From: Octopus vulgaris
Taxonomy: Eukaryota
DNA: 64,000 nucleotides
Reading direction: 5' to 3'
Assembly (NCBI GenBank): GCA_951406725.2
Contig: OX597832.1
Span: forward strand, 68,820,001-68,884,000
The notes under the pieces were generated by a model. It made no database searches. It was not told the origin of the DNA and saw nothing but the letters and a program-made list of their open reading frames with translations. Below, piece after piece: positions 13,020 to 64,000 of this stretch (position 1 is the first letter of the stretch; each line of letters opens with the position of its first letter). The translations under genes and the position numbers were made by a program.

Positions 13020-14230
13020 GTCCGCTGTCAGCCTCGTCTGGCACCCGTGCCGGTGATAGGTAAAAGCACCATTCGCTCATGGCCGTTTGCCAGCTCTGCC
13101 TGGCACCGTGTCGGTGGCACGTAAAAGCACCATCCGTTCGTGTTCGTTGCCAGCCTCGCCTGGCCCCGTGCCGGTGACACGTAAAAGCACCGTCCATTCG
13201 TGGCCGTTGGCCAGCTCTGTCTGGCCCCGTGTCGGTGGCACGTAAAAGCACCATCCGTTCGTGGCCGTTTGCCAGCTCTGTCTGGCCCCGTGTCGGTGGC
13301 ACGTAAAAGCACCATCCGTCCGTGTCCGTTGCCAGCCTCGGCTGGCCCCCGTGCCGGTGACACGTAAAAGCACCGTCCGCTCGTGGCCGTTTGCCAGCTC
13401 TGTCTGGCAACCGTGTCGGTGGCACGTAAAAGCACCATCCGTTCGCGTCCGTTGCCAGCCTCGCCTGGCCCCGTGCCGGTGATAGGTAAAAGCACCATTC
13501 GCTCATGGCCGTTTGCCAGCTCTGCCTGGCACCGTGTCGGTGGCACGTAAAAGCACCATCCGTTCGTGTTCGTTGCCAGCCTCGCCTGGCCCCCGTGCAG
13601 GTGACACGTAAAAGCACCGTCCATTCGTGGCCGTTCGCCAGCTCTGTCTGGCCCCGTGTCGGTGGCACGTAAAAGCACCATCCGTTCGTGGCCGTTTGCC
13701 AGCTCTGTCTGGCCCCGTGTCGGTGGCACGTAAAAGCACCATCCGTCCGTGTCCGTTGCCAGCCTCGGCTGGCCCCCGTGCCGGTGACACGTAAAAGCAC
13801 CGTCCGCTCGTGGCCGTTTGCCAGCTCTGTCTGGCAACCGTGTCGGTGGCACGTAAAAGCACCATCCGTTCGCGTCCGTTGCCAGCCTCGGCTGGCCCCC
13901 GTGCCGGTGACACATAAAAGCACCATCCGTTCGTGGCCGTTTGCCAGCTCTGTCTGGCCCCGTGTCGGTGGCACGTAAAAGCACCATCCGTCCGTGTCCG
14001 TTGCCAGCCTCGGCTGGCCCCCGTGCCGGTGACACATATAAGCACCGTCCGCTCGTGGCCGTTTGCCAGCTCTGCCTGGCAACCGTTTCGGTGGCACGTA
14101 AAAGCACCATCTGTTCGAGTCCGTTGCCAGCATCGCCTGGCCCCGTGCCGGTGACACGTAAGAGCACCATCCGTTCGTGGCCGTTCGCCAGCTCTGTCTG
14201 GCACCTGTGCAGGTGGCACGTAAAAACACC
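13020..14230 (+). repeat. Tandem array of 20 x ~61-bp monomers in the LINE 3' UTR
   Basis: The core GTGYCGGTGRCACGTAAAAGCACC recurs at 60-62-bp spacing (TAAAAG anchor from 13061 to 14221). Confidence 0.97.
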
Positions 14231-14451
14231 CACTACACTCGCGGAGTGGTTGGCGTTAGGAAGGGCATCCAGCCATAGAAACACTGCCAGATCTGACTGG
14301 GCCTGACGAAGCCTTCCAGCTTCACAGACCCCAGTTGACCCGTCCAACCCATGCTAGCATGGAAAGCGGACGCTAAACGATGATGATAAACGATGATGAT
14401 GTACGTATATATATATATATGTATGTGTATATATATATATATATGTATGTA

Positions 14452-15221
14452 TGTGAATAAAGGAAATTATATGACCTTGGTGAGTGTGTATGCTCCAACT
14501 ATGTGCTATACTGATGACAAAAAACTTTCTTTCTACCATGCTTTGAAGGGTATTATAAGAAATATCCCTCGGGCAGACAAAGTCATTGTACTGGGTGACT
14601 TTAATGCTAGAATGGACATATGGACTGTAATTGGAAAGCATGGGATGGGAAAGTGTAATAGTAATGGCATGCTTTTGCTGCAGATGTGTGAGGAGCTGTG
14701 TCTGTGTGTTACCAATACCATGTTTCAACAAAAGAATAAGCTTAAGACTACATGGATGCACCCTGCATCTAAAGAATGGCATATTCTGGATTACATCCTA
14801 GTTAGGGTGCATGACAGACAGGATGTACAGTGTGTTCATGTTCTTCGTGGAGCTGAGTGTTGGACTGACCACCGCCTATTACGCGCAAAAGTGAAATTAG
14901 TCACAATACATAAAATCCGAGCTGCAGGGATTACCCTGCCTAAAAGACTGAATGTTGATTGTCTTAGGTGTAATAGTGTGAAGAGAACTTTACAAGAGGA
15001 AGTGAATGCTGCAGATTTTGGGGAGGATTGGCCGATCCTTAAAAAGTCAGTTTATGATATAGGCAAGAAAGTTCTGGGATTGATACAAAGAAAGCATCAA
15101 GATTGGTTTAAAGAAAATGATGAACATATAGATGATTTATTGGCTGATAAAATACGTACTTTGTCATGCTATTTGTCAGCAAAGTCACAGGAAAGGGAAG
15201 TGTTGCATAGGGAACTCAAGG
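14452..15221 (+). mobile_element. Fragment of a second LINE family (AP-endonuclease region, RTE-like)
   Basis: SVYAPT, VLGDFNAR, NSNGMLLL, TWMHPASKEWHILDYILV, TDHRLL. Bounded by (TA)n tracts on both sides. Confidence 0.88.
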
Positions 15222-15252
<31 letters not shown>

Positions 15253-15256
15253 TATG

Positions 15257-15300
<44 letters not shown>

Positions 15301-15321
15301 TCTATATACATATATATGTAT

Positions 15322-15516
15322 AGGGAGAGTTTACGAAAAATCAAAAGACGAAGACAGGTGGTGTAGAAAACAAACAGATGTATTAGTATAACACTCAGAA
15401 ATAGAAAAAGTCTTTTACGTTTTGAGCCTACACTCTTCTACAGAAAAGGACACAGAAAAAACAAGGAGAGAAACAAAGAGAGAAAAAAATATGTGTAGTG
15501 GCTAACGATCTATCAT
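15322..15516 (-). mobile_element. Short repeat fragment carrying a hammerhead-like motif (probably Penelope-derived)
   Basis: Non-microsatellite island between (TA)n tracts. The minus strand reads CTTTT-CTGTAGA-A-GAGTGTAGGCTC-AAAA-CG-TA-AAAG. Confidence 0.4.
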
Positions 15517-15531
15517 GTGTATAAATATATG

Positions 15532-15577
<46 letters not shown>

Positions 15578-16066
15578 CATACATATATATATATGTGTAT
15601 ACAGTTGTGTAAATGCATATATATGAATGTATTCATATATGTACAGATGTACATAGGAATACATAGATGTAATTTGCATCATCATCGTGATTTAAATGTC
15701 CAATTCCTAATGCTTGTTTCGGTTGACTGGAGTCTATTGAGGCTTGCCCTTCCTGCCAGATCCTTACCCATTTCCATGCAAGGTAATACTTCCTGTGCCC
15801 CACATGTTTTCAGAGATTATTAGCCCCATAAACGACAGTGATACTCATTTGCAACACTTCATTTGTTGTCAAGATAAGGGGACACAAACATACACACACA
15901 AATACATGATTGGCTTTTTACAGTTTCCATCTATCAGATCCACTCACAGGATATTGGTTGGCATGAAACTTTAATAGCAAACTCTTTCAGAGGATGTCAC
16001 ACTGTGGAACTGAATCCAAAACCATGAGGTTGCAAAGCAAACTTCAGCCCCTTTCCCCTAATATAT

Positions 16067-16275
16067 ATGACAAGGTGCTAAATAGTTCATGGCTTTGAGT
16101 AAAGGAAAATGTAGGGGGATCAGTTAATTATGGTTTTATTCAACATATTCCCCTCTCAAATTCACAAGCTTGGTCCTTCAGATTGTTTAAGCCCTGTAAA
16201 AGAACTCAGAAGGTTTGGCTTCCAACTAGACCTTTCACAATCCCCTTAAAGCCAGGAATTTTTCAGCACTCCACT
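16067..16275. mobile_element. Mariner-type MITE
   Basis: Imperfect TIRs GTGCTAAATAGTTCATGGCTTT ... AAAGCCAGGAATTTTTCAGCAC, adjacent to TA. Confidence 0.6.
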
Positions 16276-17344
16276 CCCAACCCGTATAATCAACAACTTC
16301 ATTCCCATCATTAACCATTACATTTAAACAGCAGCTGGTTAGCATCAACATAATGAATTGTTGCTTAAATTCACTCTTAAAGCATCTACTCTTTCTCTCC
16401 CAATATTCAGAGATCTGATCTCACTACTTCATCACATACAGTGTTCACCATTTGTATATTATGTCATTTAGATCAAAGTTTGTCTTTTTCTTCAGCATTT
16501 GTATCTTACCTTCATAGCATTGTTAAGCCACCTTCAGTACATCAGCTGATGTCTTTACAACCAATATTGAACACTGCTCAGAAAGATACTATAAGCTGCA
16601 TCTAACAGTATGCTATGTACGTAATTAACCCATCATTCAAAACTTTGCTTTTACCATAGATGGTGGGAAGAAACCTTCAAAACCACTTATCTCAGCTGAA
16701 TTATGAGCTCCCATACAAAATTTAAACAGGACTGTTATTAAATATTTAATCCATGTAACACTACCGTATATTAGAGTATTTTATCAAACTAATATCATCC
16801 TTTTAATCTTGCTCTTTGTGCCAATAATATTTTTGTATGATTCAGAAAAAATGAATTTAGTGTTAGATGTGTAATATTCTTTCCTATAATTTTTATTGGA
16901 TTATTGATACCATTAATAGAACGGACACTTCTTAAAGCATGGGATTAATTCAATTCATACTTTTGTTGATTTTACTGATATTTGTCTTGATTTAGGTGTG
17001 AAGATTGTTCTGAGTTCAGCTTTGCCAAGATCATCACTCTAAGTTCAATCAAATATGATGCCAGGCAAGTGGCGGGAGCAATAATATTGACTAAGCAACT
17101 ACACCTCAAAATTTCTCACCTTATGCTTAAATTAGAAACAATTATTATTATGAGTTTTTTCTTCTTCCTTCAATTTTCTTTCCATTTTTGACAATTTTCT
17201 TACTGATATCTAAGCCAAAAGAAACTCTTTGTATACATCGATAGACCAGTCGAATAAACACATCTGATTGTTCATTTACAAAATCCAATAAAGTTATGTA
17301 GAGAAAAAAACACTATTTGAATGAATGATAAACATTCTCACAGC

Positions 17345-18095
17345 AACAATGCTCTTCTTAATAGGTGTGACATCCCATTGAGGACAATCTTTTGAACTTC
17401 TTGCAAGGATGGTAAACCAGGGATCATTTTCAAATAATTTTCACTTCCTTATTTCATCATTCCAAGTGATCCTAATTACTGGTATTCTAATTTCCCTGAG
17501 ATGTCGCATTTTTTGTGATTTCAATGAGCAAATCTTCATATTTTCTCAGCTTATCAAATTCTTTTGCCCCAACAATTAACGCATGCTAATTTAGTTAGCA
17601 GATATTAAAATATCTTGATGTTTGGTGACAATAAGTTTCCTCAAATCATAAGAACCAAAGGTCAACAATGACAGTTTCAATTCCATTCTCTTTCAGTCTT
17701 TTAAATAGGATTTTGGGTGTGGTGCCAAGTGAACCAATTACTACAGAAACAATTGTTGCTTGGAACTTTCAGTCTCAGCACTTGGGATGGATCCTGATAT
17801 TGCTCAATTTTTTTTTCCATTTCTTTATCTTTGACTCTGCTATTATAAGGAATTGCAAAATCTGTGATCTTATACTCTTTGTTTATTTTGTTTTCTGCAA
17901 TCATGCCTGGTCTTCTGACACAAAATAGTATGGTCAGTCTTTATAGGGAAGTCACACAAATTCTTGTAATCCTCATTTTCTATCACAGCCTCTGGTCCAT
18001 GTTCATACAACTTATCTGTTGCTTTCAAGCCACAGACGTGGCCAACATCCCAATACACTCTTTTACCTTCACACACTCATGTCTGCCCAATATCA
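17345..18095 (-). mobile_element. Decayed R4/Dong-like (restriction-like endonuclease) non-LTR fragments
   Basis: Frameshifted LYEHGPEAVIENEDYKNLCDFPIKTDH, ITDFAIPYNSRVKDKEMEKK and IGSLG motifs typical of the RLE C-terminus. Confidence 0.7.
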
Positions 18096-18338
18096 TCGAA
18101 GTAGTGAGCTGGCCAAATTGTTAACACATTGGAAAAAATACTTAGCAGCATGTCTTCTAGATCGTTATGTTGTGAGTTCAAATTCTGGAAAGGTTATCTT
18201 TGCTAGTCACCCTTTCAGGATCAATAATATAAACACCAGTTGACAGGGGTCAATGTAATCAACAATACGCTCCGCACACAAAAAAAAAAACAAAAACTTC
18301 AGGCCTTTTACATATAGTAGAAAAGATTATTATTATTA

Positions 18339-18387
<49 letters not shown>

Positions 18388-18389
<2 letters not shown>

Positions 18390-18682
18390 GAAAACTCACA
18401 GCTTATTTTACTGGGGATGATGGAAAGTGTCAGCTGCCCTCAGCCAGCAGACTAAGGTGATACTTGTGTACTGGTCATGATTCAAGAACCCTATGAAGAA
18501 TTCTTACAGTTCCAAGGAATGGGGATTTTTGTAGGTGTTCTACCTTCTCACTTGCAGCAATGTTTTCCAGCTATGTTGATAGCTGACTGCTGATACTTCC
18601 AAGTGACCCAATTACTATTGCTATCTCCTCTACTCTCCTCATTGACCACAACCTTCATGTTTCCCACTTCAAATTATTGTAT
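18388..18682 (-). mobile_element. 3' fragment of an R4/Dong-like LINE flanked by (ATT)n
   Basis: The minus strand encodes VIGSLGSIS...EHLQKSPFLGTVRILHRVLE. (TAA)n-type tracts lie on both sides. Confidence 0.7.
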
Positions 18683-19349
18683 TATCATTATTATCATTAT
18701 TATTATCATTATTATTATTACTAAAGCAGTGAGCTGGCAGAATTGTTAGTACACAGAGTGAAATGTTTAGCAGTAATTCATCTGCCGCTATGTTCTGAGT
18801 TCAAATTCTGCCAAAGTCGACTTTGCTTTTCATCCTTTCAGGGTCAATAAATCAAGTACCAGTTGAGTACTGGAATCGATGTCATCAACTGTCTCCCTCC
18901 CCACAAAATGCATCCCTTGTGCCCACAGTAGAAAGGATCATCATCATCATCATCATCATCATCATTATTATCATCATCATCCTCATCAACATTATTATTA
19001 TCATCATCATCAGCATCATCATTATTACTATTATTATCATCTTTGTTAGATATATCTATGATTGCAAGCATGTTTATGATTAGCAAAGACTAGAATCTTT
19101 TAAAAGCTTTGTTCTTTGCAACGTGTAAGCCCCACCAGAATTAAATATGTATATTCTGTGAATCATCTTTCTTGTTCCTTCAGTTGAATTTCAAACTTCT
19201 AATCGCACCAAATATTATGTAGAAATGATTAACTCCCTTATACTAACTGGTGACCAGGGAACAGTGTGCATCTGTATGTACATATATATCAAAGTGTGCA
19301 TTTGCATGCATATATATGACAATTCATCAATATGCTCATGTACGTATAC

Positions 19350-20278: not shown

Positions 20279-20323
<45 letters not shown>

Positions 20324-21163: not shown

Positions 21164-21219
<56 letters not shown>

Positions 21220-21221
<2 letters not shown>

Positions 21222-21497: not shown

Positions 21498-21499
<2 letters not shown>

Positions 21500-24185
21500 T
21501 CATCATCATCATCATCATTTAACATCTGCTTTCCGTGCTAGTATGGGTTGCACAATGTTGACTGAAGGCTGGCAAACCAGATGGCTGCACCAGGCTCGAG
21601 TCTTGATCTGGCAGAGTTTCTACAGCTGGATGCTCTTCCTAACGCCAACCACTCCGAGAGTGTAATGGGTGCTTTTTACGTGTCACCGCCATGGGGGCCA
21701 GTCAGCTGGTACAGGAAGAGACCTCACTCGAATCTTTTTACACGTGCCACCAGAACAGGTGCCAGTAAGGCAATGCTGGTAACGATCACGCTTGAATGGT
21801 GCCCTTTTATGTGCCACAGGTAAGGAAGCCAGTTGGCTGCTCTGGCACTGATCATGCTCCGATGGTGTTCTTGGCACCCTACTAGCACAGGTATAAGTGC
21901 CAGTAAGGCGACACTGGTAACGATCATACTCGAATAGCCGCTTTGTCAATGATCACACTCGTGTGGTGCTCTTTGCACCCCGCTAGTACGGATGCCAGTC
22001 ATGGAAATGATTTTGATTTTGATTTCACTTGCTTCAACAGGTCTTCGCAAGCAAAGTTTAGTGACCAAAGAAGGAAAAGGTACGCATAAGCGGGCTGGTT
22101 ATGCTCCTGGCATAGGTCACAGGTTAAGGTCTCATCTGGCTTGCCGGGTCTTCTCGAGCATAGCATATTTCCAAAAGTCTCGGTCGCTAGTCATTTCTTT
22201 GGAGAGGCCTTATGTTCAAAGGTCATGCTTCACCACTTCATCCCAGGTCTTCCTGGGTCTACCTCTTCCACAGGTTCCCTCACTCCGCTAGGGTGTGGCA
22301 CTTTCTCACACAGTTATCCTCATCCATTCTCACCACATGACCATACCAGCACAGTCGTCTCTCTTGCACACTACATCTAATGCTTCTTAGGTCCAACTAT
22401 TCTCTCAAGGTACTTACACACTGTTGAGTATGCACACTGACATTACACATCCATCGAATGATACTGGCTTCATTCCTTGCAAGCTTATGCATATCCTCAG
22501 CAGTCACAGCCCATGTTTCACTGCCGTACAGCATGGCTGTTCATACACATGCATCATACAGTCTACCTTTTACTCTGAGCGAGAGGCCCTTTGTCTCAAG
22601 CAGAGGTAAGAGCTCTCTGAACTTTGCCCAAGCTTTTCTTATACTAGCAGCTACAGTTTCAGTGCACCCTCCTCTGCTACTGACATGGTCACCTAGGTAA
22701 CGGAAGCTATCAACTACTTCTAGTTTTTCTCCCTGGCATGTGGCGGAAGTTGCTCTCTGCGCATTTTCAGTGTTTATCGCTCCCGAGCATCTGCCACATA
22801 CAGAACCTATCTTCCCAGTTAGCCTTCCTTTGATATTACTGCACCTCTTATGTGTCCATAGCTTACACTGGGTACATCTTATAGAGTTTCTACCTACCAC
22901 TCTACAACAGATCGTGAAGGGCCATCTACCTGAAGGGATTTGTGGTTTGCCTGCCTTCCTACTTATTAGGAATTTGGTTTTAGCTAGGTTGACTCTAAGG
23001 CCCTTCGATTCTAATCCTTGTTTCCACACTTGAAGCTTCTTCTCTAGTTCTGATAGTGACTCAGCAATTAGAGCAAGGGCGTCAGCACAGAGGGAGCTCC
23101 CAGGGGCATCCTGTCTTGAATTCCTCCATTAATGCCTGGAGGACTATGATAAATAGGAGGGGGCTGAGGACTGAACCTTGGTGGACCTCTACCTCTACCC
23201 GGAATTCTTCACTGTACTCGTTGCCAACCCTCACCTTACTGACAGTGTCCCTGTACATGGCTTGCACAGCTCTCACTAACCATTCATCTATCCCTAGTTT
23301 CCTCATTGACCACCAGATAAGGAATCGGAGGACCCTGTCAAAGGCTTTCTCCATGTCAACGAAAGCCAGGTACAGGGTCATATCTTTGGCTAGGTATTTC
23401 TCCTGCAGCTGTCTCATCAGAAATATGGCATCAGTGGGGCTTTTCCATGGCACGAAACCAAACTGCATCTCATCCAATTTGACTCTCCCCCTAATCAGTT
23501 GGGCCTGGGGCTTTCCCAGTCTTCATGCTTCTAATTGCCTTAACTACCAAGGAACTGTCAACTCAGATAGCTGGTCCCTCTGTTGGGTCAACATTCGGTA
23601 GACTCTCTTTATCCCATTCATTTTCTTTATTCAGCAACCTTTCATAGTGGCGTCTCAAAACCTCTCTCTTTGCATCCTCATTTAGCACAAGTGAACTGTC
23701 ATCCATGCGAACACATTTCTCTCCTACCACATCACTCTTACACACTGTCTTCCAACACGAAATACCTCAAGTCTTTCATCCTCATGGCGCAGAACATTGG
23801 CAATTTTTTTCTTATCTGCTTCCTCTCTGACTAAATAAACCTGCCGCCTAGCTTCCCTTCTGGCAGTCTGATACGCTTCCCTGCTACCACCGTTTTTCCA
23901 GTCCTTCCAAGCCTGTTTCTTTTGTCTAATAGCCCTGTCAACAATATTGTTCCACCACCACGTTATTTTGGGTCAAGAGGGGACTTTGCACCATCCACAG
24001 ATCTGGTCGGTGGCCCTTAGCAGGTTGTCCTGTAGGAACCTCCAGTTGTCTTCTACCCCATGTGAAGCTATTTCCCCTTCTATTTCGTCAAAGACTTTGA
24101 GTAATATGTCTCTGAAACTGTCCACTTGCGGGATCTTTAAGTCTCCAGACCATTCTTCTCTTTGCTGGTCATCTTCTGGGCATCC
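21498..24185 (-). mobile_element. Truncated, frameshifted copy of the RTE-PHD LINE family
   Basis: ORF pieces closely match the 9832-12960 protein (e.g. DMEKAFDRV, QGSVLSPLLF). It has a (CAT)n tail at 21498, a degenerate 3' array at ~21670-21990 and a ~230-bp internal deletion near 23500. Confidence 0.93.
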
Positions 24186-26213: not shown

Positions 26214-27332
26214 GCTTATATATCTGAGTAGCTGTGTAGCTACCTTACAAAAAGGCTCCTTGTTATTCACTTCAACCCATTATCCCCTAATACAGAGCTG
26301 CCTCCTCCTCTACTGTATTCCTACACAGTTGAAGTGATACTTAATCTTGCAGGATGTACGGTAAACACTAATGCTGGTGCCATGCGAAAGACACCCAGTG
26401 CATGCTATCCAATGGTTGTCATTAGGAAGGGTATCCTGCTGTAGAAGCCTTGCCAAAGTAAACATTGGAGCATGTTGTGGTCTTTGAACCCATCGGATCT
26501 CATCAACTCATCTAACCCGTGCCACATGGATCACTAAGTCTAAATGATGCTAAAGATACTGATAACGATATGTATTTATATATCACACACACATACACAC
26601 TTGCAAGAGTGTGTTTAAACATGCGTACGGACATACATATATATGTATCATTTGAAATCTGTTTCCTATTTACAAGATTTTGTTAATGGATATAATTAAT
26701 TAGAAATAATCGAAAGACAAATATTAATAATCTGAAGACTTAACAAAATAATTCCTAGTTCCTCAACTTGTCCGTTACTTTAATTATCAGTCACAACATA
26801 AACAGAAATGACTTCCAATCCAATTTCACTTTTTTCAACACAATTCTATTACTTTCATAATGATTTGAGTTAATTAATTGAGTTGTGCACACAATGTTTC
26901 ATATATATTACAAGCACACACACACATGCACACACTCATACATACAACAAACATATGTATATATATGTACATTTCTATATTTTCATGATGTTAATCTATA
27001 CATATGCGAATATCAATGTACTTACTCTTATGTATTTGTGATTGTGCATGTGTGTGTAAGTGCATGCATATATGCATATATAAATATTTATGTTTCTATA
27101 TCTATATATCTACTTACACACATACACACGCAAACATATACACACATACACATATATTTATATATATATATATATATACATATATCACTAATAGAAACAC
27201 AGAAGCACCTGTACACACATAGATTTATTAAAATATATATAAACACAAATGCACGTGCATACACATACATACATGCACGCACATGCACACACGCACACAC
27301 ACACACATGCTCACACACTCACACACACACGC

Positions 27333-27369: not shown

Positions 27370-30300
27370 TCTTAATTTGTTTGCATTCTAAGCATCAACC
27401 TGTTCCATCTTGATGTGTCTAATCAATAATTATTAATATCAAAATGTATTAATTACTCCACTGTTATGAAAATAAGCTAATTACAAACCAACTACTTGAC
27501 TATCTGAAAAAAAAACATAATAATTAAAAAATATGTTATATATTCTGTGTGCAGGTGCTTGTATTAATAATATATTTTGCTCTAAGAAACGTTATTTATA
27601 TATTTAGGAAAGAAACTTTTTTTTAAATATCTGGAAAAATAAAATATAATAAAACAGCACAAATCTGGTAAACTTCTTTTCCAAGTATATTGTCTGTTGG
27701 AGTTGTATATTATCAGAATATACTAAACTTAAAATAGTGCATCTCAAATGTTAGTCATCGTGTTCAAGTTCCTAGCACAGATCATATTTTTGCTGTTGGT
27801 TCATCACACCAGACACACGCGTAATTGAGAGGATGGAATAGAACAGACAATGAAAGGCAATGCATGATTGATAGGCCAGAATATAATATGTACTGAATTG
27901 CTCTTTAATCATTGTCTGGAGGAAAACTTCAACTAATTCAAAATACTTTTGTTTCCTCAGAATTCATTTATCTAAATCTATGATAGTGTCACTCTTTAGT
28001 TATTCTTCTTGATTCATTTTATTTTCTTTTATTTGTGCATCATTTGTTATACATATGAAAAAAAAAATCTATAATCAGTATATCAGAGACAGGCTTGATT
28101 AGATTATATGATGTTAATAAAGTCTAATAAGACTGAAACATCTGCAGAGTAGTTCCCCTTGAATAGAATGGATCATGAAATATATAACTCACTTTTGTGA
28201 ACTTACTCCCTACTTTTAAAGTTATCTTCTATTTTATTTACAATTAATGCCAGAAGTGAAATTTCTGTTAATCCACAAGTTATTATAAGTATCATTTGGT
28301 GCACCATCCCTAATTTACTTATATGGGGATAATATAACAAGTTTAATTAATTATCAATATTTCTCTGTTTTTGACATCTTCATCAGCACTGAGTATAAAA
28401 TCAACAGTTTATGAGGACTTTATCTTTCTATTTGAATTTACGCTTTGCATAAATTCCTTTTTGAAACTATTTAGATATTTCATTAGTTTTGGTCTTTGAA
28501 AAAAGATCATAAAATTGCTTTTAAATTAATTTGACAGTATTGATTTCTAATATAAGTTTTTCCGATTTTGATATAATGAAGTGATGAAATGATACTGTGG
28601 CATCTCTAAGTTTGTTCTTCTCAACAACATTGGTCATTTTTAGGGCACAACCAATTCCCTGCAATCACTCTGCAGCTTGCTGCAACTCAATCCCCAGATC
28701 ACTGCTACTGACAGGCTGTTACTTCATTGTGTCTTCAGTTGTCATGAGAATGGCTTTTGCCCTTTTCAATTTAGCTTTCTTCTCATTCATTCCAGCACTG
28801 GCCTTTCCAGCATGACTCTTCTTTATTTTTTATCAGTTGTATTATGCCTTGTGCTACAGGTTTTGCTTTGAGTTCAAACCACACCATGGTCAGATTAGCC
28901 TTTCTTTCGTGGGGGTCAAGGAAAATTTATTTATTGATGCCAAGTAATAGACTGGCAGAACTATAAGAATATCAAACCAGATATTTTATGGCATTTGTCT
29001 CATCTCTATGTGTTCCTGTGACCATATCTGCAACTCTTGGCTGGTGTTTCTAGTAGAAGTAGCTCTCTTCAATACTGACTTCTCTTTTTGTTTTGTTTTT
29101 GTGCTGTTTTTCTTTTTGAATTCCACAAAAATTCCTAAAGCTTTCAGAATAACAAGCATGCAAGAAATATGAAGCTCATATATTTAAGAAGATAATTACT
29201 TCTATTTCTTCTAGTGAGTGGTGGTGGGAGGTTATTGCTATGCTTGATATTTCCATTATAAAATCGAAAAAAACCCTTCTGGCTAACTTTGAACCCAAAG
29301 GTGCAAGCATGTTAAGTGATTTGTTTCCTGACCATGTGCTTTTTAGTCCAATCGCCAATTTTCTACGGCTGGATGCCCTTCCTGTCACCAACCCTTTTTA
29401 GTTTTCACAGAAGATGGGAAATGAAGGACACCAATTGTACCACAGTGATTGCTCACTCACAACTATCATGCAATGTCGAGAAAGGACAGTATAAAACACA
29501 CACAACAAGCTTCCACACAGTTTTCTTCAACAAAATCAACTCATAAAACTTTGAATGACTTGAGAAGACACTTGCCCAAGGTGCCACAGAGTAGGACTGA
29601 ACCTGATGCCTTATGGTAGGGGAGAAAACTTATTACCCACACAGCCATGCCTGTACCAACATGAATGACAGAGAATATACCAATCACTGACGAACAAGAA
29701 ACCAAGAAAATCCCAGGGTGGAACTGAAGTTGGCAAATAAGAGGAGAAAATTGATTGCTGGGAGATATTTAGTCCCAATACACTAAACTTCTCCATGAAG
29801 AATCTTTAACATAGAATCTAATTTAAAATATTAATTGAAAACAAACAATTAAGAAGGTAGATTGTCTTATACTGAAATATGACTAAAATCTCAATTATCT
29901 CGCTAATACAAATTTACATTTCGGTGAAATAAATAATTAAACAAACAAAAAATAACCCAAAATTATTACACCATTTTTTCTATGTATTTATTTATACATT
30001 ATGACTGGATATATAATTCTGATATAATTTAATAAATAGAAATACTAGATTAATCTGCCGAATAAATTTCATTTACCTTTTGAAATTTTAAATTGAATTT
30101 CAAATAGAAAAAGAAAAATACATTTTTGATTACAGTTTCTGTATAATCTTAAATATTCTAGAGAGTGATATGCTGTAAAATAAATGAGTAAACTGTAGCC
30201 AAATGCTACAATATCCTAAAAAAACCCACAAAGAATAACAAAAGAAAAGCTATTTTGGTTACTAATTAATTCAGTCAAGCAATCGAACAAGATTTCAAGT

Positions 30301-31684: not shown

Positions 31685-31910
31685 AACATGATCGATGCCA
31701 GGCCTGCCTGACTGGCTCCTGTGCCGGTGGCATGTAAAAAGCACCCACTACACACTTGGAGTGGTTGGTGTTAGGAATGACATCCAGCTGTAGAAACCTT
31801 GCCAAATCAGATTGGAGCCTGGTGCAGCTGCTGGCTCTCCAGACCTCAGTCAAAACGTCCAACCCATGCCAGCATGGAAAACGGACGTTAAACAATGATG
31901 ATAATGAGGA
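31685..31910 (+). mobile_element. 3'-end fragment of the RTE family or of an RTE-tailed SINE
   Basis: GTGCCGGTGGCATGTAAAAAGCACCCACTACAC...CCATGCCAGCATGGAAAACGGACGTTAAAC plus a GAT tail. Similar fragments at ~26370-26550, ~48030-48250 and ~59650-59850 (minus). Confidence 0.8.
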
Positions 31911-32196: not shown

Positions 32197-32823
32197 CCTG
32201 GAAAGTTTTGGCATTTATAAGCAGCCATCTTTGCCTTTTTCAGGTGAGGATGTAGTCAATCTGACTAGTGTGTCTGCCCGAGCGGTAGGTAACTAGGTGA
32301 CTGGCAGGTTTTCTGAAGTTAGTATTGCAAACCATAAGATCATTTGCGTCTCAGAACTCCAGCAGCCTGGTTCCCGCCTCATTGCGAGTGCCAAAACCGT
32401 AGCCTCCATGTATGCCATGGAAACCCCCAACATGTTGTCCAACATGTCCATTGAAGTCACGAGCCACAATGAGAAGGTCCCTATCATTCGTCAATGCGGT
32501 AGTCTGCAAGAGGGTGTCATAGAATCGGTCTTTCTGTCCATTGGGTAGCCCTGGCTGAGGGGCATAGGCCGAGATAATGGCTGCTAACCCATGGTGGAGC
32601 ACTAATCTAATCTTAAGTATTCTGTCACATACCCTGACTACCTCAATTACCTTATCTACCCATTTCTCCGCAAGAAGTATACCCACACCTCCAATCCCGT
32701 CAGTGTCCCCTGGCCAGAAAATCTGGTACCTGTGTTCTTTACCTGTGAGGAACCTAGCAGAACCTCCTCTCCTCCTAACTTCTTGGATGCAGCACATATC
32801 AACACATCTCCGTTCAAGTATCT
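32197..32823 (-). mobile_element. APE-domain fragment of the RTE-PHD LINE family
   Basis: The translation matches the N-terminal region of the 9832-12960 ORF (nt ~9986-10613). Confidence 0.92.
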
Positions 32824-33003
32824 GTATTTTTATATATGCATCCATGTCTTTATTTAATTTCAGTAGGGAAGGAAATTAGATGACTTTTTAAGAGTCATTT
32901 TTGAAAGATAAACATGACACATTTGCAGAGTTTTCAGCAATATTAAATGGTATTTTCCTCATTAGCATTGTTATAAGGGTACACATATAATAATAAGATT
33001 ACA

Positions 33004-46180: not shown

Positions 46181-46181
46181 G

Positions 46182-47340: not shown

Positions 47341-49102
47341 AAATGATGGAAGTGATCTAGTTATTAACTTTGCCTGCCTTACTATTCTTAGGTGTATTCC
47401 TTTAGCCCATTTTTTAGTGTAACTGGCCACTGTGCTTATCATCTTATTCCAATTCCTTTTCTTCATGAAATCAGGACCAAAAAGATTCTGAACAATTTAA
47501 CTAATTACTTCATCCAGCACCCCATGATGCAGTTGGACAAGATGAAGCTGCCCTCCTCAGGTGCCAAACTGCAGGCCTACTCTCTTTTTCTAGTAGACTT
47601 TGGCTCCTGTCTCCACCTCGTAGACCATCCAAGATGTACCAATGAATATGACATGCTTAGTATCCAATACTATTATGGTGATATCTGCATATGCCAGCTA
47701 AGATCTCACTGTAATTTAGATGGGATGCCTTGAAATGGGAATAAAGATTTGGCTGCAATATGACAAGTACATGGAACACCTGTAGTGGCTAATGGTGTTG
47801 TGAGAAAGTTAAAAGGTAAGCTGAGGAAATTAGAGCCAAATATCTTGATTTTCTGCAAAAGTGATGGAAGGATCAGGCACCAGACTGGAGATATATAAAG
47901 GGAGAAGAAAATAATTGAATCTATCAGCCAAGATCCTGACTGGTACTTTAGTCTATCTCCACTGGAAAGACCCATACTCTGCAGCAGAAGTGTTACGACC
48001 ATTGACCCTGGTGAAAAGGATTGACCTGCAGGGGTCCTGTGCTGGTGTCTCATAAAAGGCACTCATGGCAGTACCACATTCAAAGCACTCGTGCAGTGCT
48101 ACATGCAAAGCACCCAGCACACCTGTAAATTGGTTGGTATTAAGAAGGGCATCCAGCTGTGGAAACCCTGCCAAATCAGAAGACTGAAGCCTAATGCAGC
48201 TCTGGTCAAACCATCAAACCTGTGCCAGCATGAACAATGGACATTAAGACAAGTAAATTTGATGCTAGCAGCATTTGAACTCACAATCTTAAGAACTGGA
48301 AAAAATACCACATGGCATTTTATCCTATGCTCTGGTGATTTTTAGATGTTGTTATTTAGCATAGGAAAAAGGCCTTAGATTATATCAGACCCAGAACATG
48401 GTTAATAACCAAAGTTGCAGCAGTAGCAGCAGCAGAGGCAGTGAGGGCAGCGGCAGCAGTAGCAGTAGTACCCTCTGCACAAGAAGAAGATGACCAACCA
48501 GGGCAATCAAACATAATTGGATCCCATTTGGAATTTCCGACTATGAATGTTCAATAGTTTGATCAGCAAATCAGAATCTTTGAATCAGCATCAATGTAGC
48601 TTGGTATTCTACAGTTTCTTTAATGTAATTCTCAGGTAGAATCAATGTGGCTAAGAGACACGTAGCTGTACCATTGAAATTACAAATGCAATCCACCTGA
48701 AGGTTTCAGTACATGTTCCTTTTATTAAATGTAATTGGGTTGACCCAAAACCATAGAAAATAACATTTTCCTACGATACCATATAGTGGAATCAAAATCG
48801 GGAGCTCATGACAGCAAAACTATCTTCAGAACCATTTGGTTGTATGGTGCCAACAATCAAACTGTAGTCGTAGACAAAAACTATTTGATTTTTATTGCAT
48901 AGATAAATTTTGGCCAGTTATTTACAAGTGAAGATCTGTGTTATCAACATGAAGAATAATTTAGTCATTTGTTGTATCAGATTTTGTGGGCAGCATCGAG
49001 TAGTTTGATCTATAGCGTCTACCATTCTTTTGGTCATTCCCTTTTATTTTAATAATTAAATCTACTTCTAAATGTCAATGAGTAGAACTTAGCCCTTCCA
49101 GC

Positions 49103-55600: not shown

Positions 55601-55768
55601 GCTGCTGCTGCTACTACCACCACCACCACCACCACCACCACCACCACCACCACCACCACCACCACCACCACCACCACCACCACCACCACCACCACCACCA
55701 CCACCACCACCACCACCACCACCACCACCACCACCACCACCACCACCACCACCACCACCACCACCACC

Positions 55769-55812
<44 letters not shown>
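55601..55812 (+). repeat. Compound microsatellite (GCT)n-(CAC)54-(TAC)11
   Basis: Pure CAC run at 55618-55779, then TAC to 55812. Confidence 0.97.
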
Positions 55813-55814
<2 letters not shown>

Positions 55815-56887: not shown

Positions 56888-57297
56888 CAAGAAGTTGGTG
56901 GATAAGATGGTGCATCATGATCTTTGGTTGTTGAGTCTCACAGACATGATGACAAGTGACAGAGATTTCTGGCAATTTGCTGTGCTTGAGAAGACACATC
57001 AAGCCATGTGGAAACGTGGTCGGGGCCAGTGCTGGTGATACATGAAAGGAAACCATGCCAGTGACATGTAAAAGGCACCTGTACCAGTGGCACATACAAC
57101 ACACCAGTGTCAGTGACATGTAAAAGGCATTCTGTACACTCTGTGGAGTGGTTGGTGGTAGGAAGGGCTTCCAGCCATAGAAAATATGCCAAAGCAGATG
57201 ACTTGAACCTGTTGCAGCTCTCTGATTTATCAGCTCCTGTCAAACTGTCTAACCCGTGCCAGCATGGAAAACAGATGTTAAATGATGATGATGATGA
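56888..57297 (+). mobile_element. 5'-truncated old copy of the RTE family (ORF tail + short-unit array + GAT tail)
   Basis: VHHDLWLLSLTDMMTSDRDFWQFAVLEKT matches the ORF end VKHDLRTLGLTKEMTRDRDLWKYAVREKT. About 4 core units of ~25 bp follow. Confidence 0.8.
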
Positions 57298-58008
57298 ATT
57301 CCTCTCAACACATGGCTATGATGCTGCCCCACTACTTCTGCTCAGAGATGTACATATCGTCAGCCACTAAGAGACATGCTCAACTGGATAAGGTCAAACA
57401 ACTGGCAAGCAAATCTGTGGTATTGAGCAGAATATTTGCTGAAGCCCATCTTTTATTGCAAGACAAAAACAACGTACAAGATTTCCCCTGTTTCATTATC
57501 AATGGTCTGCTAGTGGCCTGCCCCCTTAATTGTCAGCTAACATCTTGATTTAAGTTTTCCTTTACAAAATCCCATGATATTGCTTCAAATAAATCTTGAT
57601 TTTTATGACTATACCCACTATGATTTCTGTCGACTCACTAAGTCATACCCCTAACAGACCCGGCCTTATATATACAAGAATTTGATAAAACTAGTCTATA
57701 AATTAAAAGTGACCCCATATAAAAGTGACAAGCAAAATCTGTAACAAGTCTTTCTTCCTGATATCTTAGTAGCTTCTAAGTGGAAGGAAAAGCAACAATG
57801 TTCTTTGTCTATCTCCTTAACTTCTTGGAGATTTTAGGCAAAATTATACTAATGTGTCCATCTGTTTTAATTTAATTAAATTCTATGTCTTTGTGCAGCT
57901 GAAGATTGTACTGCATTTAAAATGATGCAATGGTTGCATTGTTCAATTAAATGGAGTTGCATGAAACGATCGTGCTGCATTACCTCTGAATATCCTTGTT
58001 GCTTATTT

Positions 58009-58075
<67 letters not shown>

Positions 58076-58692
58076 CATATGTATATATATATAGAAAGGT
58101 TGGCTTTTCTTTGAACAGATCTTATATATTTGAATTTTAAATGTTTGAAATATTATCAAACTTGATTCCAATAATGATTGCAATGTAAATGAATTCAGAA
58201 TATTATCTTACACATTTATCTGTTTTTATTTTTTTCTCAATTTAATTATTTAAAATCTTACACTGAAAAATGTCAAGAGATCAGAAACTGAATTACTCTT
58301 AATTAGCAAAAATAATTATTTATTAAAATAATAAACAGGCTTAAATATCAACAGTGGAATGATTACTATTTTCTCCATTCAATCTACATGACTACAGAAC
58401 ATTTACCAGTTATTGCTATTTGACCAATACTGCCAAGGTCAACTTTGCCTTTCATTCTTTCAGTTTCAATGAAATAAGCATGATTTATGCACTAGGGTCA
58501 ATGTAATGGACTATTTTCCTCCCCCTACAAAATTTCAGGCCTTGTGCTTATAGTAGAAAGGATTATTTGTTCTGTTCAATGACAAAAACGCTAAAAAAAA
58601 AACAAAAATAAAAATATACATACATACATATGTATATACATAAATACATACATGCATATATATACATACATACATATATATACATAAATACA

Positions 58693-58748
<56 letters not shown>

Positions 58749-60011
58749 CAACAGTCTTCTTTCAGTCTCCATCTACCAAATCCATTCACACAGCATTGGT
58801 CAGCCTAGGGCTACAGTAGCCCAAGTTCCCATGCAGTGGGACTGAACCTAGAACTATGAGATTGTGAAGTAAACTTCTTACCACACACGCACACTTTCAC
58901 CTATGATTGATGAAGTATAAATCACATCTCACCACCAAGTGGTACTTCCCTGTGACCAGGTGTACTCGGCTATTGAGCAATAAGTGTATTAAAATGAGAG
59001 GAGCAGTGAGAGGGCAAGACTTAGTCCAGTCAACTATTGATGACCTGATCAATCATAACAATCAAATTATGATAGAACAAATATGTGATCACAAATTTAC
59101 ATTTATCTTGAAATATTTGGAAATTAAACGATTAGGAAAGACATTGTAGCTTATTGGAAATATATATGTCACACTCTACACACCTGTTTATATTGAGTTA
59201 ATTTGTAGCTGTACATACACAGTTAATTGGTTTAGATTACTTTCTATTACAGAATCCAATTTTCATATTAACGCCATCAAATTATTTAATCTAGATGTCG
59301 ACTGATTTTTAACTAATTGTTGATGAGGTTTCAGCATGTTTGCTGCACATGCAATTCATTAAAACTTAAAAGATACACAATTATGCCGTTACCTAAAGAA
59401 ATCAATATTGATCAATGACTAATATTACCTTCATTTTATTTGGCAACTATGGGGGACAACTCTGGGCATGCTTCAGTATATTCTGATCTCATCAGTTAGG
59501 TTTATATTTATCATAGGAATATGATGATGACAATGATGATGATGATAAGGAGGAGGAGGAGGAGGGGGATTAAGACACTGATGATGATGATGATGATCAA
59601 TATAAATATTTACATGTTGATATGGCTGTGTGTAACAAGTATGCTTCCACGTTGTTTAATGTCCGCTTTCCATGTTGGTATGAGTTGGACACTTTGACTG
59701 AGGCCTGGCAAGCCAGAAGGCAGCACCAGGCTCCAATCACACTCAAATAGTGCTTTTTATGTGCCACTATTACAGGACCAGTCACTCAGCACTAGCATTA
59801 ATCATGCTCAAATGGTGCTTTTTACATACCATCAGCACAGGTACCAATAAGGTGGTACTGTCATCAGCCAAGTTCTGCTGTGTGTACCTTGGGCAAGTGT
59901 CTTTTACTATAGCCCCTGGTCATCTAGTGCCTTGTGTAGACAGAAACTGAAATAAGACCATTCTGTATGTGTGTGCATGTGTGTGTGTGTGTGAGTACAT
60001 ATATATATATA

Positions 60012-61144
60012 TTCAGTGTGCAACTAATTTCCCACCATTTTTTTAATTTTGAAATTTATTACGTTTTTAAATTTTGGCATCTATTTTTTTATCAAGAATT
60101 CTGTTTTTGAATCATTTTGGAATCTATTTTGTTTTTTTTTTCTAGTTAATTTTAGTTCACTTTTGTTTATTTTCAGGTCATTAAAATGGAATGTCAAGTT
60201 AAGAAAAATGAGCATTTTTGACACCTGTTTCTTTTTGCTTTTAATCAAGGTTCTATGGCCACAAAAGCTGCTTGCAACAATTGTGCTGTGTATGGAGAGG
60301 GTGCCATAGCTGAGAGAACCGTTTGTGATTGGTATACCAAGTTCAAAAATGGCAAGTCTGACCTCAAAGATGCACCTCATTCTGGCCGTCCAGTTGAATT
60401 CGAAGAAGAGAGATTAAACCAACTTTTGCAAGAAAATTCTCATCAAATGACAAGGGAACTGGCAGAGAAAATGGAATACTTCCACACTGCTATAGAGAAG
60501 CATCTTCACTCGATGGAAAAGGTTCAGAAGTATGGAGTATGGGTTCCGCATGCTTTAAGTGACAACAAAAACCAATGAGACACAATCTCTGCTGGTTTGC
60601 TTGCTTGTCACCACTCAACTCATGGACGCAAGCAATGATATCTTTACCGAATCATTACTGGCTACAAAAAATGGTGCCTGTACCTGAACTTTATGCTCAA
60701 CAGATGGATTGGCTCAACATGGCTATTCAAGAGAAAACACTAATTGGCAGCATGGAGTTCTTCTGCTGCACGACAATGCCTGCCCTCATGTCACCAATAT
60801 GACCAAAGAAGCCATTCAAATACATGGTTGAGAAGTGGTGCCACACCTGCCACACTCTCCTGATTTGGCATCAATGAATTTCTACCTGTTTTGATATCTT
60901 TCAAATGCTATGCGCAGTTTTGTTTAATACTGATGCAGAATTGAGAGGTTGGTTGGATAAATTTTTCGAGTTGAAATCGGGTGATTTCTACCAATGAGGT
61001 ATTGAAAATTTTGTTGAACATTGGGAAGAAGTTGTAAACAAGGGTGAATAAATAATTGATTAATTAGTTGTTATTTTTTTTATTAAACCTTTTAAAATAC
61101 CTAAATTAAAAAAAAAAACGGTGGGGACTTAGTTGCCAACTTTA
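60012..61144 (+). mobile_element. Decayed, internally deleted mariner transposon
   Basis: TIRs GCAACTAATTTCCCACCATTTT / AAAACGGTGGGGACTTAGTTGC in TA context. Transposase remnants WYTKFKNG, SGRP, TRELAE, WVPHAL and HSPDLA, with stops and frameshifts. Confidence 0.9.
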
Positions 61145-61164
61145 TATATGTATATATATATATA

Positions 61165-61600
61165 TATATATGTGTGTGTTATGAGAGGTAATGGTGTCAA
61201 AAAAACCCAAGGTATCAGGTAATGGTAAGTGCTATGGACAGACTATAGTTAAGCTCCAGGTTCGGTGATTCAATAACACTGTTTACAAACTCTATGCTTG
61301 GAATGACCAATTTTAAATACTATTGGAGCTTACACACAAGGTACAGGAAACTTATATGTATACCATTCTACTTAAATAATGGAACTGCAGATACAATATC
61401 CCTGCATATCTCACATATGTTTTCATTCCTCCCGTTCAGTCTCTATTTCATATCTTCTGTAGAATACCTATTGCTCAACCATTTTCTCACACCATCTCCG
61501 ATGAAGGGATATATAATATATCCCAGAAACAGCTGTGAGACCTTTGCTTTATAAATATTCTGAAATCTTGCACAGCCTTGGATTTTTATCTTATTCTGTT
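61165..61600 (+). mobile_element. Probable decayed Penelope-like 3' end with a minimal hammerhead-like motif
   Basis: CCGATGA-A-GGGATATAT/A/ATATATCCC-A-GAAA-CAGCTG-T at 61498-61536, with weak GIY-YIG-like remnants (YGQT, IPFY) upstream. Confidence 0.5.
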
Positions 61601-61648
61601 AATTTTATATATATATATATAGATATATAGATAGATAGATAGATAGAC

Positions 61649-61691
<43 letters not shown>

Positions 61692-61704
61692 CATAAATAT
61701 ATAT

Positions 61705-62068
61705 TTTATTTGTTTCAGACATTTGACTGTGGCCATGATGCAGTACCACATTTACTCAAACAACTTGACCCCAGAACTTATTCTTTGTAAGCCTAGTACT
61801 TATTCTATCAGTCTCTTTTTTGCCGAACCACTAAGTTACTGGGACATAAGCACACCAACATCAGTTGTCAAGTGGCGATGGGGGGAAAATCAGACATACA
61901 CAAACAAATACATATGCATATATATATGACGAGCTTCTTTCAGTTTCCATTCACAAGGCTTTGGTTGACCCAAGGCTATAGAAGAAGACACTTGCCCAAG
62001 GTGTCACGCAGTGGGACTAAACCAGTAACCATGTAGTTGGGAAGCAAGCTTCTTACCACACCTGTGCC
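61705..62068 (-). mobile_element. tRNA-derived SINE, family B
   Basis: Colinear with 19350-19771. Confidence 0.8.
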
Positions 62069-62095
62069 TATATACAAATATATACATATAAATAC

Positions 62096-62150
<55 letters not shown>

Positions 62151-62185
62151 CATATACATATATATATATATATACATATAAATAC

Positions 62186-62225
<40 letters not shown>

Positions 62226-62233
<8 letters not shown>

Positions 62234-62684
62234 ATATTTCGGAATGGTCATATTGCCAGTTTAGCCAATAAAAACACACGCACTATATATTTGGTGTTAT
62301 TTTGCTTCAGTGATATTTATTTTTTACATTAATCTTAATCTTATTTCGGCCAAAGTTCTTTCGTCACACTCCTGTGACCGCATCAGTGGTCCTTTGTTTT
62401 CTTCTCACTTACTTGTGTCTCTCCTTACTAACCATCAGCCATTTTGTATTTCTAATAGAAATACAAAATGGCTGACGGTTAGTAAGGAGAGACACAAGTA
62501 AGTGAGAAGAAAACAAAGGACCACTGATGCGGTCACAGGAGTGTGACGAAAGAACTTTGGCCGAAATAAGATTAAGATTAATGTAAAAAATAAATATCAC
62601 TGAAGCAAAATAACACCAAATATATAGTGCGTGTGTTTTTATTGGCTAAACTGGCAATATGACCATTCTGAAATATAACAATAT
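62226..62684. repeat. Near-perfect palindrome, 229-bp arms, 1-nt spacer
   Basis: The arms are reverse complements about A62455, with two mismatches seen by eye. Confidence 0.95.
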
Positions 62685-62767
62685 CTGTTTCAACACACGA
62701 CTTCACATAAAAAATCTTGCACAACAAATATTTAAACGTATATATATATATATATTCATATAAATAC

Positions 62768-62811
<44 letters not shown>

Positions 62812-62856
62812 ATACATATACATATATATATATATATATACATATAAATATATATA

Positions 62857-64000
62857 CATCATCATCATCATCATCATCATTTAACGTCCGTTTTCCGCGC
62901 TAGCACGGGTTGGACGCTTCGACCGGGGTCTGGGGAGCCAGGCTCCAGTCTGATCTGGCAGTATTTCTACAGCTGGATGCCCTTCCTAACACCAACCACT
63001 CTGCGAGTGTAGTGGGTGCTTTTTACATGCCACCTGCACAGGTGCCAGAGGGGTCTGGCATCGGCCACGATTGGTTGGTGCTTTTTATGTTCCACCGGCA
63101 CAGAAGCCAGTCGAGGCGGTGCTGGCATCGGCCATGTTCGGATGGTGCTTTTTATGTGCCACCGGCACAGAAGCCAGTCGGGGCGGTGCTGGCATCGGCC
63201 ATGTTTGGATGGTGCTTTTTATGTGCCACCGGCACAGAAGCCATTCGAGGCGGGTTTGGCATCGGTCACGTTCGGATTGTGCTTTTTATGTGCCACCAGC
63301 ACAGAAGCCAGTTGAAGCGGCACTGGCAACGGCCACAGGTGCCAGAGGGGTCTGGCATCGGCCACGATCGGTTGGTGCTTTTTATGTGCCACCGGCACAG
63401 AAGCCAGTCGAGGCGGTGCTGGCATTGGCCACGTTCGGATGGTGCTTTTTATGTGCCACCGGCACAGAAGCCATTCGAGGCGGGGTTGGCATCGGTCACG
63501 TTCGGATGGTGCTTTTTATGTGCCACTGGCACAGAAGCCAGTCGAGGCTGCACTGGCAACGGCCACGTTTGGATGGTGCTTTTTATGTGCCACTGGCACA
63601 GGTATCACAACTACTGTTTCCATTGATATTTGGTTCGATGTTCATGTACATGCACTTGACTCAACAGGTCTCCTCAAGCACAGCGAGATGTTCTGGGATC
63701 CAAGGTACTTTGAATGGGCAGGGGGTATGCGGAACTGGTGCCGGAAGTATCCCAGGTCTTAGTAGTCACAGCACATCTCCAGAGATCTCGGTCCTTCGCC
63801 ATTGCCTCAGTGAGGCCCAACACTCTGAGGTCATGCTTGACTAGCTCATCCCATGTCTTCCTGGGTCTACCTCTCCTCCTGATTCCTTCAACTGTTTGGG
63901 AGTGGCACTTCTTCACACATCTCTCCTCATCCATCCGCAGTACATGACCATACCATCGCAAGCGTCGCTCTTGCACACCGCATCTGATGCTTCTTATGCC
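62857..64000 (-). mobile_element. 3' part of another RTE-family copy (runs off the window end), with a 9-copy ~67-bp array
   Basis: QERRLRWYGHVLRMDEERCVKKCH...RGRPRKTW. The core motif recurs at 63017, 63079, 63146, 63213, 63280, 63376, 63443, 63510 and 63577. (CAT)n tail next to (TA)n. Confidence 0.93.

What the first reader, a model, noticed from the sequence alone, without database searches (positions are those of the whole stretch)
13020..63600. Conserved core, exchangeable spacer: each RTE copy has a different array built on the same ~24-nt motif
Seen: the core GTGCCGGTGGCACRTAAAA(A)GCACC is repeated 20x at 61 bp (13.0-14.2 kb), 9x at ~67 bp with a different spacer (63.0-63.6 kb, minus), ~5x degenerately (21.7-22.0 kb, minus), ~4x at ~25 bp with almost no spacer (57.0-57.1 kb), and 1-2x in short fragments (31.7 kb, 48.0 kb). 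The 67-bp spacer also keeps a GCCAG...CTGGC stem with a longer loop. Inference: repeated independent amplification with retained stems points to selection on RNA structure or to a motif-triggered RT template-jump mechanism.
Basis: partly seen in the sequence, partly recalled or inferred. Interest (0 to 1): 0.7.

Follow-up and report, generated by a model that had tools for sequence, protein, structure and literature searches.

The report
Variable repeat array in octopus retrotransposon
A very abundant jumping gene of this (likely octopus) genome carries a chain of short repeats near its tail whose design is inherited within each subfamily and whose length changes from copy to copy, likely by slippage between similar units as known for the primate SVA element, while the last repeat and two short stems stay conserved and may fold into a small RNA knot.

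Summary
The arrays are real: 20, 9, 5 and 4 cores in the window, all in the 3' UTR of one RTE-type LINE lineage (21,407 exact copies of one 27-mer genome-wide). The title is half wrong. Spacers are not exchanged: all 61-67-nt units align end to end and only a hairpin loop varies. Array design belongs to the subfamily; copy number varies within young subfamilies (4-20 cores, 28 of 30 different unit orders). Remodelling after insertion is shown: segmental duplicates of one insertion hold 5 versus 2 cores, and private mutations are copied along arrays. Breakpoints are spread over the unit (6 of 17 in the core), so a motif-triggered jump is unsupported. Verdict: an SVA/LAVA-like VNTR in an autonomous LINE. 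The scan's notes showed no earlier report of it.

The parts
9209..14402 (+). Young RTE-type LINE copy (subfamily A), 5'-truncated inside a long 5' UTR
   Evidence: 98-99% identity to other copies from 9209 onward; two longer copies continue upstream
9817..12960 (+). Open frame of 1047 aa: AP endonuclease + reverse transcriptase + Cys/His finger
   Evidence: relatives carry PF00628
13046..14231 (+). Array of 20 cores, 61-nt units; units 1-7 duplicated as 8-14 after three private substitutions
14206..14231 (+). Terminal core (candidate H-type pseudoknot: pairs 1-4 with 15-12, 7-10 with the final CACC)
   Evidence: structure inferred, not shown
14246..14282 (+). 37-nt block, 35 of 37 columns invariant in 7 subfamilies; found at the 5' side of RTE-type elements of other animals
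14341..14402 (+). 3' stem-loop and (TGA)n tail
21498..24179 (-). Broken subfamily C copy; 5 mutually diverged cores at 21990, 21889, 21824, 21757, 21693
26370..26560 (+).
31690..31900 (+). 5'-truncated 3' fragment: part of one spacer, terminal core, block, tail
48038..48245 (+). Old 3' fragment with decayed 26-nt core-only units
56904..57305 (+). Old subfamily D copy: ORF end, four 26-nt core-only units, terminal module
62857..64000 (-). Subfamily B copy (continues beyond the window); 9 cores in 67/62-nt units at 63600-63015

Best explanation
This is a variable tandem array in the 3' UTR of an RTE-type LINE: each subfamily inherits an ordered set of units from its source element, and units are then lost or gained at genomic copies after insertion, likely by slippage or recombination between similar units, while purifying selection likely keeps the last core and the short stems in active elements. 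Steps: (1, shown) a 26-nt core sits once in the terminal module of all 7 subfamilies sampled. (2, shown) Old subfamilies D and H have 2-4 core-only units; A, B, C, E and G have 61-67-nt units with one homologous spacer. (3, shown) Unit order is inherited: two sub-lineages of A, told apart by a SNP outside the array, carry 11-core and 15-core versions. (4, shown for single loci) Arrays shrink and grow as DNA. (5, inferred) A remodelled copy that becomes a source founds the next subfamily design; arrays whose units have diverged freeze. (6, inferred) The core folds as a small pseudoknot or is read by a protein, probably the element's own; one terminal copy would suffice and extra copies are tolerated.
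For: Homologous spacers in 22 unit types. Array group follows ORF end in 87 of 93 copies. A sub-lineages: 4-11 vs 4-20 cores, p=0.0007; 25 of 30 copies shorter than the inferred source order, 2 longer. Same insertion, same private changes and 3' flank, 5 cores in L038 vs 2 in L053-L056 and L060, junction in the spacer. Private substitutions repeated within arrays: window A copy (3 shared), L338 (41 cores), L339, L159. Subfamilies with diverged units are stable: C and G, longest exact match between units 9-14 nt, G 5 cores in 27 of 30; A and B 29-30 nt. Junctions with short overlaps spread over the unit. Same picture published for SVA/LAVA (PMC4432496, passages and section 15 read).
Against: Repeated private sites were found in few loci only (2 or more sites in 1 of 30 A, 1 of 23 B, 1 of 27 D, 0 of 30 E), and deletions leave no such trace, so most changes are undated. 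Departure from 15 cores does not grow with age in A (Spearman -0.03, p=0.89, n=30) and nearly unmutated copies already differ, which fits loss during reverse transcription. D has near-identical units yet 4 cores in 20 of 27 copies; D, E and G were fetched with queries that held the array, which favours equal lengths. Large source arrays despite a deletion bias may need selection for size.
Confidence: 0.65

Rival explanations
1. The core is a functional RNA module (H-type pseudoknot, with the spacer hairpin as partner) and source elements are selected for more copies, for example as extra loading sites for the element's protein or as blocks to RNA decay.
For: All 7 terminal cores keep the 7 inner pairs; two alternative pairings break in 4 of 7 and 3 of 7. 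Paired core columns change 1.1 vs 2.3 times per column (p=0.008). Source arrays of 11-15 cores persist although 25 of 30 copies are shorter. Every subfamily has at least 2 cores in its consensus.
Against: No two-sided change except C-G to T-A at a CpG pair; all 6 changes in the spacer stem break pairs. 13 of 33 upstream unit types break the knot, 3 of 3 in C. Folding z-scores of array pieces -0.1 to -1.9 (pseudoknots not modelled). 11 SINE-type copies with the block and an RTE-like tail have no core. No Rfam family.
Confidence: 0.15
2. Most unit losses arise during reverse transcription, when the enzyme switches between homologous units of its own RNA; this needs similarity, not a special motif.
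For: Strong deletion bias and no age trend; the duplicated block in L011 shares only one CpG change of six; repeat deletion by reverse transcriptases is known from retroviruses (recalled).
Against: DNA-level loss and gain are shown directly; de novo LAVA integrants kept their VNTR unchanged (PMC4432496, passage); age range in A is narrow, so the null trend is weak.
Confidence: 0.15
3. The core triggers a template jump of the reverse transcriptase at a fixed place.
For: The 3' edge of the array is the end of the core in all 7 subfamilies; one inherited long duplication in E joins 6 nt behind a core.
Against: 6 of 17 distinct breakpoints lie in the core, about 41% expected by length (my count, leaving out one mis-parsed row, one ambiguous row and two A-run expansions); decayed cores amplified in L159; non-core stretches of 5' and 3' UTR are duplicated too.
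Confidence: 0.05

Closest known systems
VNTR domain of SVA and LAVA retrotransposons (PMC4432496; passages and section 15 read)
   Same: Subfamily-specific ordered repeat units, conserved first and last units, variable interior, microhomology at breakpoints, remodelling at DNA level
   Different: Here in the 3' UTR of an autonomous LINE of an invertebrate, next to the reverse transcriptase's recognition tail; units derive from a core present once in the terminal module; followed across seven subfamilies of about 0.4-16% divergence
RTE-2_OV of Octopus vulgaris (PMC9115989; passages read)
   Same: RTE-clade LINE with endonuclease, RT and zinc finger; 3' UTR of about 600 nt described as mostly 'microsatellite'
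   Different: Identity with this family not tested: no sequence hit in 8 supplementary files searched, files 5-8 not searched; the paper's passages describe no 61-67-nt array
Bipartite RTE-derived short elements, 5' UTR piece + 3' tail (PMC5786205; passages read)
   Same: The last 130 nt (block + 3' stem-loop + simple repeat) have the layout of short elements in other animals: 48 of 69 such loci end in the same tail motif about 195 nt behind the block
   Different: Here the module sits behind an intact ORF; the block itself was not in that paper's supplement
Mouse and rat L1 5' UTR monomer arrays (recalled; also named in note e1-8670260)
   Same: Subfamily-specific tandem units of variable number in a LINE UTR
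   Different: Those are promoter units at the 5' end; this array is 3' and no promoter role was tested
Deu/Nin SINE domain (PMC4824008 supplement, parts 1-2 of 4 read)
   Same: Short look-alike of the core: GTG/CAC stem followed by TAAA and ACC
   Different: Best likeness is to the youngest subfamily, not the oldest; exact Deu-type pattern has 0 matches in the genome; no such match outside this LINE in the unselected stretches

Membership tests
RTE-clade LINE | Single ORF with AP endonuclease and reverse transcriptase, no ORF1, no RNase H | tested here: met
   Pfam RVT_1 and Exo_endo_phos only; no other ORF of 150 aa on + between 4540 and 9817; the window copy is 5'-truncated, so the far 5' end was not scanned for ORFs
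RTE-clade LINE | 3' end with short simple repeat after a stem-loop | tested here: met
   (TGA)n after a nested stem-loop in all 7 subfamilies, with one two-sided pair change in B
RTE-clade LINE | RT phylogeny groups with named RTE elements | not tested
   Best 120 relatives carry no clade names; clade label rests on layout and recall
Retrotransposon VNTR of SVA/LAVA type (works like) | Subfamily-specific ordered units with conserved ends and variable interior | tested here: met
Retrotransposon VNTR of SVA/LAVA type (works like) | Copy-number change at DNA level with microhomology | tested here: met
   L038 vs L053-L056, L060; overlaps of 0-7 nt at simple junctions
Retrotransposon VNTR of SVA/LAVA type (works like) | Array affects mobilisation | not testable with these tools
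   needs a retrotransposition assay
SVA/LAVA family (membership) | Non-autonomous primate composite with Alu-like part, moved by L1 | tested here: not met
   autonomous ORF, invertebrate-type genome
H-type RNA pseudoknot | Two interleaved stems possible in all members | tested here: inconclusive
   7 of 7 terminal cores, 20 of 33 upstream unit types
H-type RNA pseudoknot | Compensatory base changes | tested here: not met
   only a CpG-type C-G to T-A change
Known ribozyme or Rfam family | Covariance-model match | tested here: not met
   only chance-level hits
MetaSINE domain | 66-nt Meta-domain sequence | tested here: not met
   compared by eye with the supplement alignment: different sequence
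Deu/Nin SINE domain | Extended (70-120 nt) domain similarity | tested here: not met
   only a short look-alike

The most novel reading that the evidence does not exclude
The 26-nt core is an undescribed compact RNA pseudoknot that an octopus RTE lineage has kept next to its 3' recognition tail for tens of millions of years and multiplies up to 40-fold; arrays shrink in most copies, but source elements are selected for many knots (protein loading or RNA protection), so a LINE tunes its own activity through a structural repeat.
Probability: 0.15. Interest if true: 0.6.

Novelty: new variant of a known kind. Interest (0 to 1): 0.33.

Why it matters
It gives a natural series for how a tandem array evolves inside an autonomous retrotransposon: seven dated designs, frozen and fluid states, and about 2 x 10^5 copies by extrapolation (63 modules in 780 kb). 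The loci are ready-made length markers. If the element is the brain-expressed RTE-2_OV, its unresolved 3' UTR is explained. If the knot proves real and dosage-dependent, it would be a new cis signal of RTE elements, whose RNA recognition is poorly known.

Tried and rejected
Meta-domain origin of the block: my recall was wrong. Deu/Nin origin of the core: negative. Homology of the core region to the hairpin upstream of the block in other animals' RTE 5' ends: local scores no better than shuffles (85-405 of 500 shuffles reach them). Ribozyme: no Rfam match in array or in four such 5' ends. Perfect core-only tandem: 0 exact matches. Block in viral contigs: 0. 5' truncation hot spot at the core: 17 of 88 unselected copies end in the terminal core against 4 in the next 38 nt, but old subfamilies missing from my library inflate this; inconclusive. 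Raw reads X22-X24 were too distant (2-37 reads laid) to map junctions. No RNA holder listed; contigs of four runs cover the stretch but say nothing on expression. ORF-end tree used a wrong anchor for B, C and G and was redone (E had too little ORF sequence). Stem counts came from a misaligned 3' arm and were redone; crashed. Group counts lost copies to over-merging and were redone.
Full report
Observation. The window is AT-rich, microsatellite-rich animal DNA from a 2.8-Gb genome, likely an octopus (inference from size and element type). The arrays are there: 20 cores at 13046-14231, 9 at 63600-63015, 5 at 21990-21668, 4 at 57028-57131, 1 at 31720, 2 at 48038/48064 and one more at 26370; 31 window matches against 0 in 30 shuffles. 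The quoted core is a consensus: 0 exact matches in the 13-kb array, 4 at 63 kb.

Anatomy. Every copy has the same order: ORF end, a variable stretch, the array, then a terminal module of core, 16-nt linker, 37-nt block, middle part, 3' stem-loop and (TGA)n. The intact ORF (9817-12960) has endonuclease and reverse transcriptase domains; relatives are unnamed, so 'RTE' rests on layout and recall. One 27-mer of the module has 21,407 exact genomic matches; 63 modules lay in 780 kb of unselected sequence. Of 131 cores in unselected stretches, 8 lacked an intact downstream block, and by inspection these too are pieces of this UTR.

Subfamilies. I fetched the 30 best loci for each of eight queries and analysed seven groups; the eighth (L371-L400) was mixed and left out of group statistics. 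Divergence of the terminal module from group consensus: E 0.4%, A 1.5%, B 4.7%, G 4.9%, C 5.8%, H 12%, D 16% (best-hit samples, so biased low). D has four 26-nt core-only units, H two or three; C and G have five mutually diverged 64-67-nt units; A 61-nt, B 67/62-nt and E 62-66-nt units with higher-order repeats. If the rate in PMC13282606 applies (distance 0.065 = 18 million years; passage read), D is some 40-50 million years old. In 87 of 93 copies the nearest ORF neighbour has the same array group. So the design belongs to the subfamily.

Spacer. Twenty-two lineage-level unit types (of 28 upstream types in A, B, C, E, G; 6 without a full spacer were dropped, which favours the stem) align end to end (window units). 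Only the hairpin loop (6-11 nt) and the last 3 nt turn over. Core versus spacer as wholes: p=0.24. 'Exchangeable spacer' is not supported. What may be exchanged is the whole 3' UTR: A and B are 78% alike at the ORF end but 89% in the terminal module, A and C 92% and 85%; this is an inference from two small alignments.

Copy number. In A, 30 copies have 4-20 cores and 28 different unit orders, all readable as deletions or block duplications of one order. A SNP outside the array splits them into an 11-core and a 15-core sub-lineage (p=0.0007); 25 copies are shorter than the inferred source, 3 equal, 2 longer (the source order is my reconstruction and tends to be long by construction). B ranges from 2 to 41 cores. 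C and G are stable, and their units share only 9-14-nt exact matches against 29-30 nt in A and B. D is the exception: near-identical units, 4 cores in 20 of 27 copies, one with 14; D, E and G samples are biased toward the query's length.

When and how. Shown at DNA level: L038 and L053-L056/L060 are duplicates of one insertion (same private changes, 93-98% identical flank) with 5 and 2 cores, the junction lying in the spacer. In the window, units 1-7 were duplicated after three private substitutions; L338, L339 and L159 repeat private variants, and L159 amplified cores that no longer pair. Against a pure DNA-level view: such traces occur in few loci, and array length shows no age trend in A, so loss during reverse transcription may contribute. 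Breakpoints of irregular units fall at 17 distinct positions from 4 to 66 in the unit, 6 in the core against about 41% expected (my count), with overlaps of 0-7 nt where the junction is simple. The motif is not a trigger.

Constraint. Between source lineages the spacer stem changes 0.6 times per column, linker 1.7, loop 4.3 (p=0.0005 and 0.003; loop columns are aligned by their ends, which inflates them); paired core columns 1.1 against 2.3 (p=0.008) (columns treated as independent, structure chosen after seeing the data). After insertion stem and loop mutate alike (G 7/280 vs 6/224; C 4/130 vs 5/104). All 7 terminal cores keep an H-type pseudoknot of 4+4 pairs with 2-, 1- and 6-7-nt loops (H lacks the outermost pair); a simple hairpin breaks in 4 of 7. 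The size resembles plant-virus frameshift knots (recalled). But the only two-sided change is at a CpG pair, all six spacer-stem changes break pairs, 13 of 33 upstream types break the knot, folding z-scores are weak, Rfam has nothing, and 11 SINE-type copies use the block and tail without a core. Constraint is likely; whether on shape or on letters is open.

Origin of the module. The block occurs in 120 metagenome loci from other animals (scan cut at its limit): 90 near the start of short elements, 48 of 69 of which end in the same tail motif, and one 255 nt before an RTE ORF start; none of the 9 loci with ORF hits has an ORF end close upstream on the same strand. This suggests that the octopus LINE took up a 5'-UTR-plus-tail module of the bipartite kind (PMC5786205, passages). 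Inference only; sequence upstream of the block shows no significant likeness.

Known context. The closest system is the SVA/LAVA VNTR: ordered subfamily units, conserved ends, microhomology, DNA-level change, no change in de novo integrants (PMC4432496; passages and section 15). RTE-2_OV may be this family (PMC9115989, passages; supplement files 5-8 unsearched). Nine full-text searches listed no description of this array; of the listed papers I opened six (also PMC4824008: part 2 of 6, passages, supplement parts 1-2; PMC4758252: passages); Repbase and Dfam were not available and probably hold the consensus. The scan's notes had no look-alike; one note describes a 5' monomer array in an RTE of this genome.

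Verdict. Real, abundant and mostly explained by a known process in a new place; a conserved terminal core of unknown role is the open point. New variant of a known kind, interest 0.33.

Noticed in passing
window 14246-14282; L228, L205-L320: The invariant block behind the array is a 5'-side element of RTE-type elements in other animals but lies in the 3' UTR here; suggests capture of a bipartite 5'+3' module.
   Followed up: partly
window 29345-29652 (-); L147, L165, L166, L167, L176: SINE with a tRNA-like head (by recall) that ends in the same block and an RTE-like tail but has no core; candidate SINE-LINE partnership.
   Followed up: partly
window 63660-63760 (-); subfamily B: B's 3' UTR holds a second look-alike of an ORF end, and its ORF and UTR similarities to A disagree; possible 3' UTR swap between RTE lineages.
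   Followed up: partly
window 9387-9609; L332:1589-1862: The long pyrimidine-rich 5' UTR has its own duplications (49 nt at 174-nt spacing, and a larger block).
   Followed up: no
L338:5700-8900: 41-core array with 343-nt higher-order repeats and an A-run expansion inside one core; a small satellite forming in place.
   Followed up: partly
L053-L056, L060, L038: One insertion spread to six places on different contigs by segmental duplication.
   Followed up: partly
L237, L215, L235, L226 (about 84 nt before the block): 5' ends of another animal's RTE carry a 6-bp hairpin followed by TAAA, like the core in layout; no significant sequence likeness, no Rfam match.
   Followed up: yes
L327: Rearranged A copy: inverted 5' part joined to the 3' part.
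   Followed up: no
window 14390-15391: A different LINE endonuclease fragment (30% identity) directly follows the A copy's tail.
   Followed up: no
window 32200-32827 (-): Isolated endonuclease fragment of the same RTE family.
   Followed up: no
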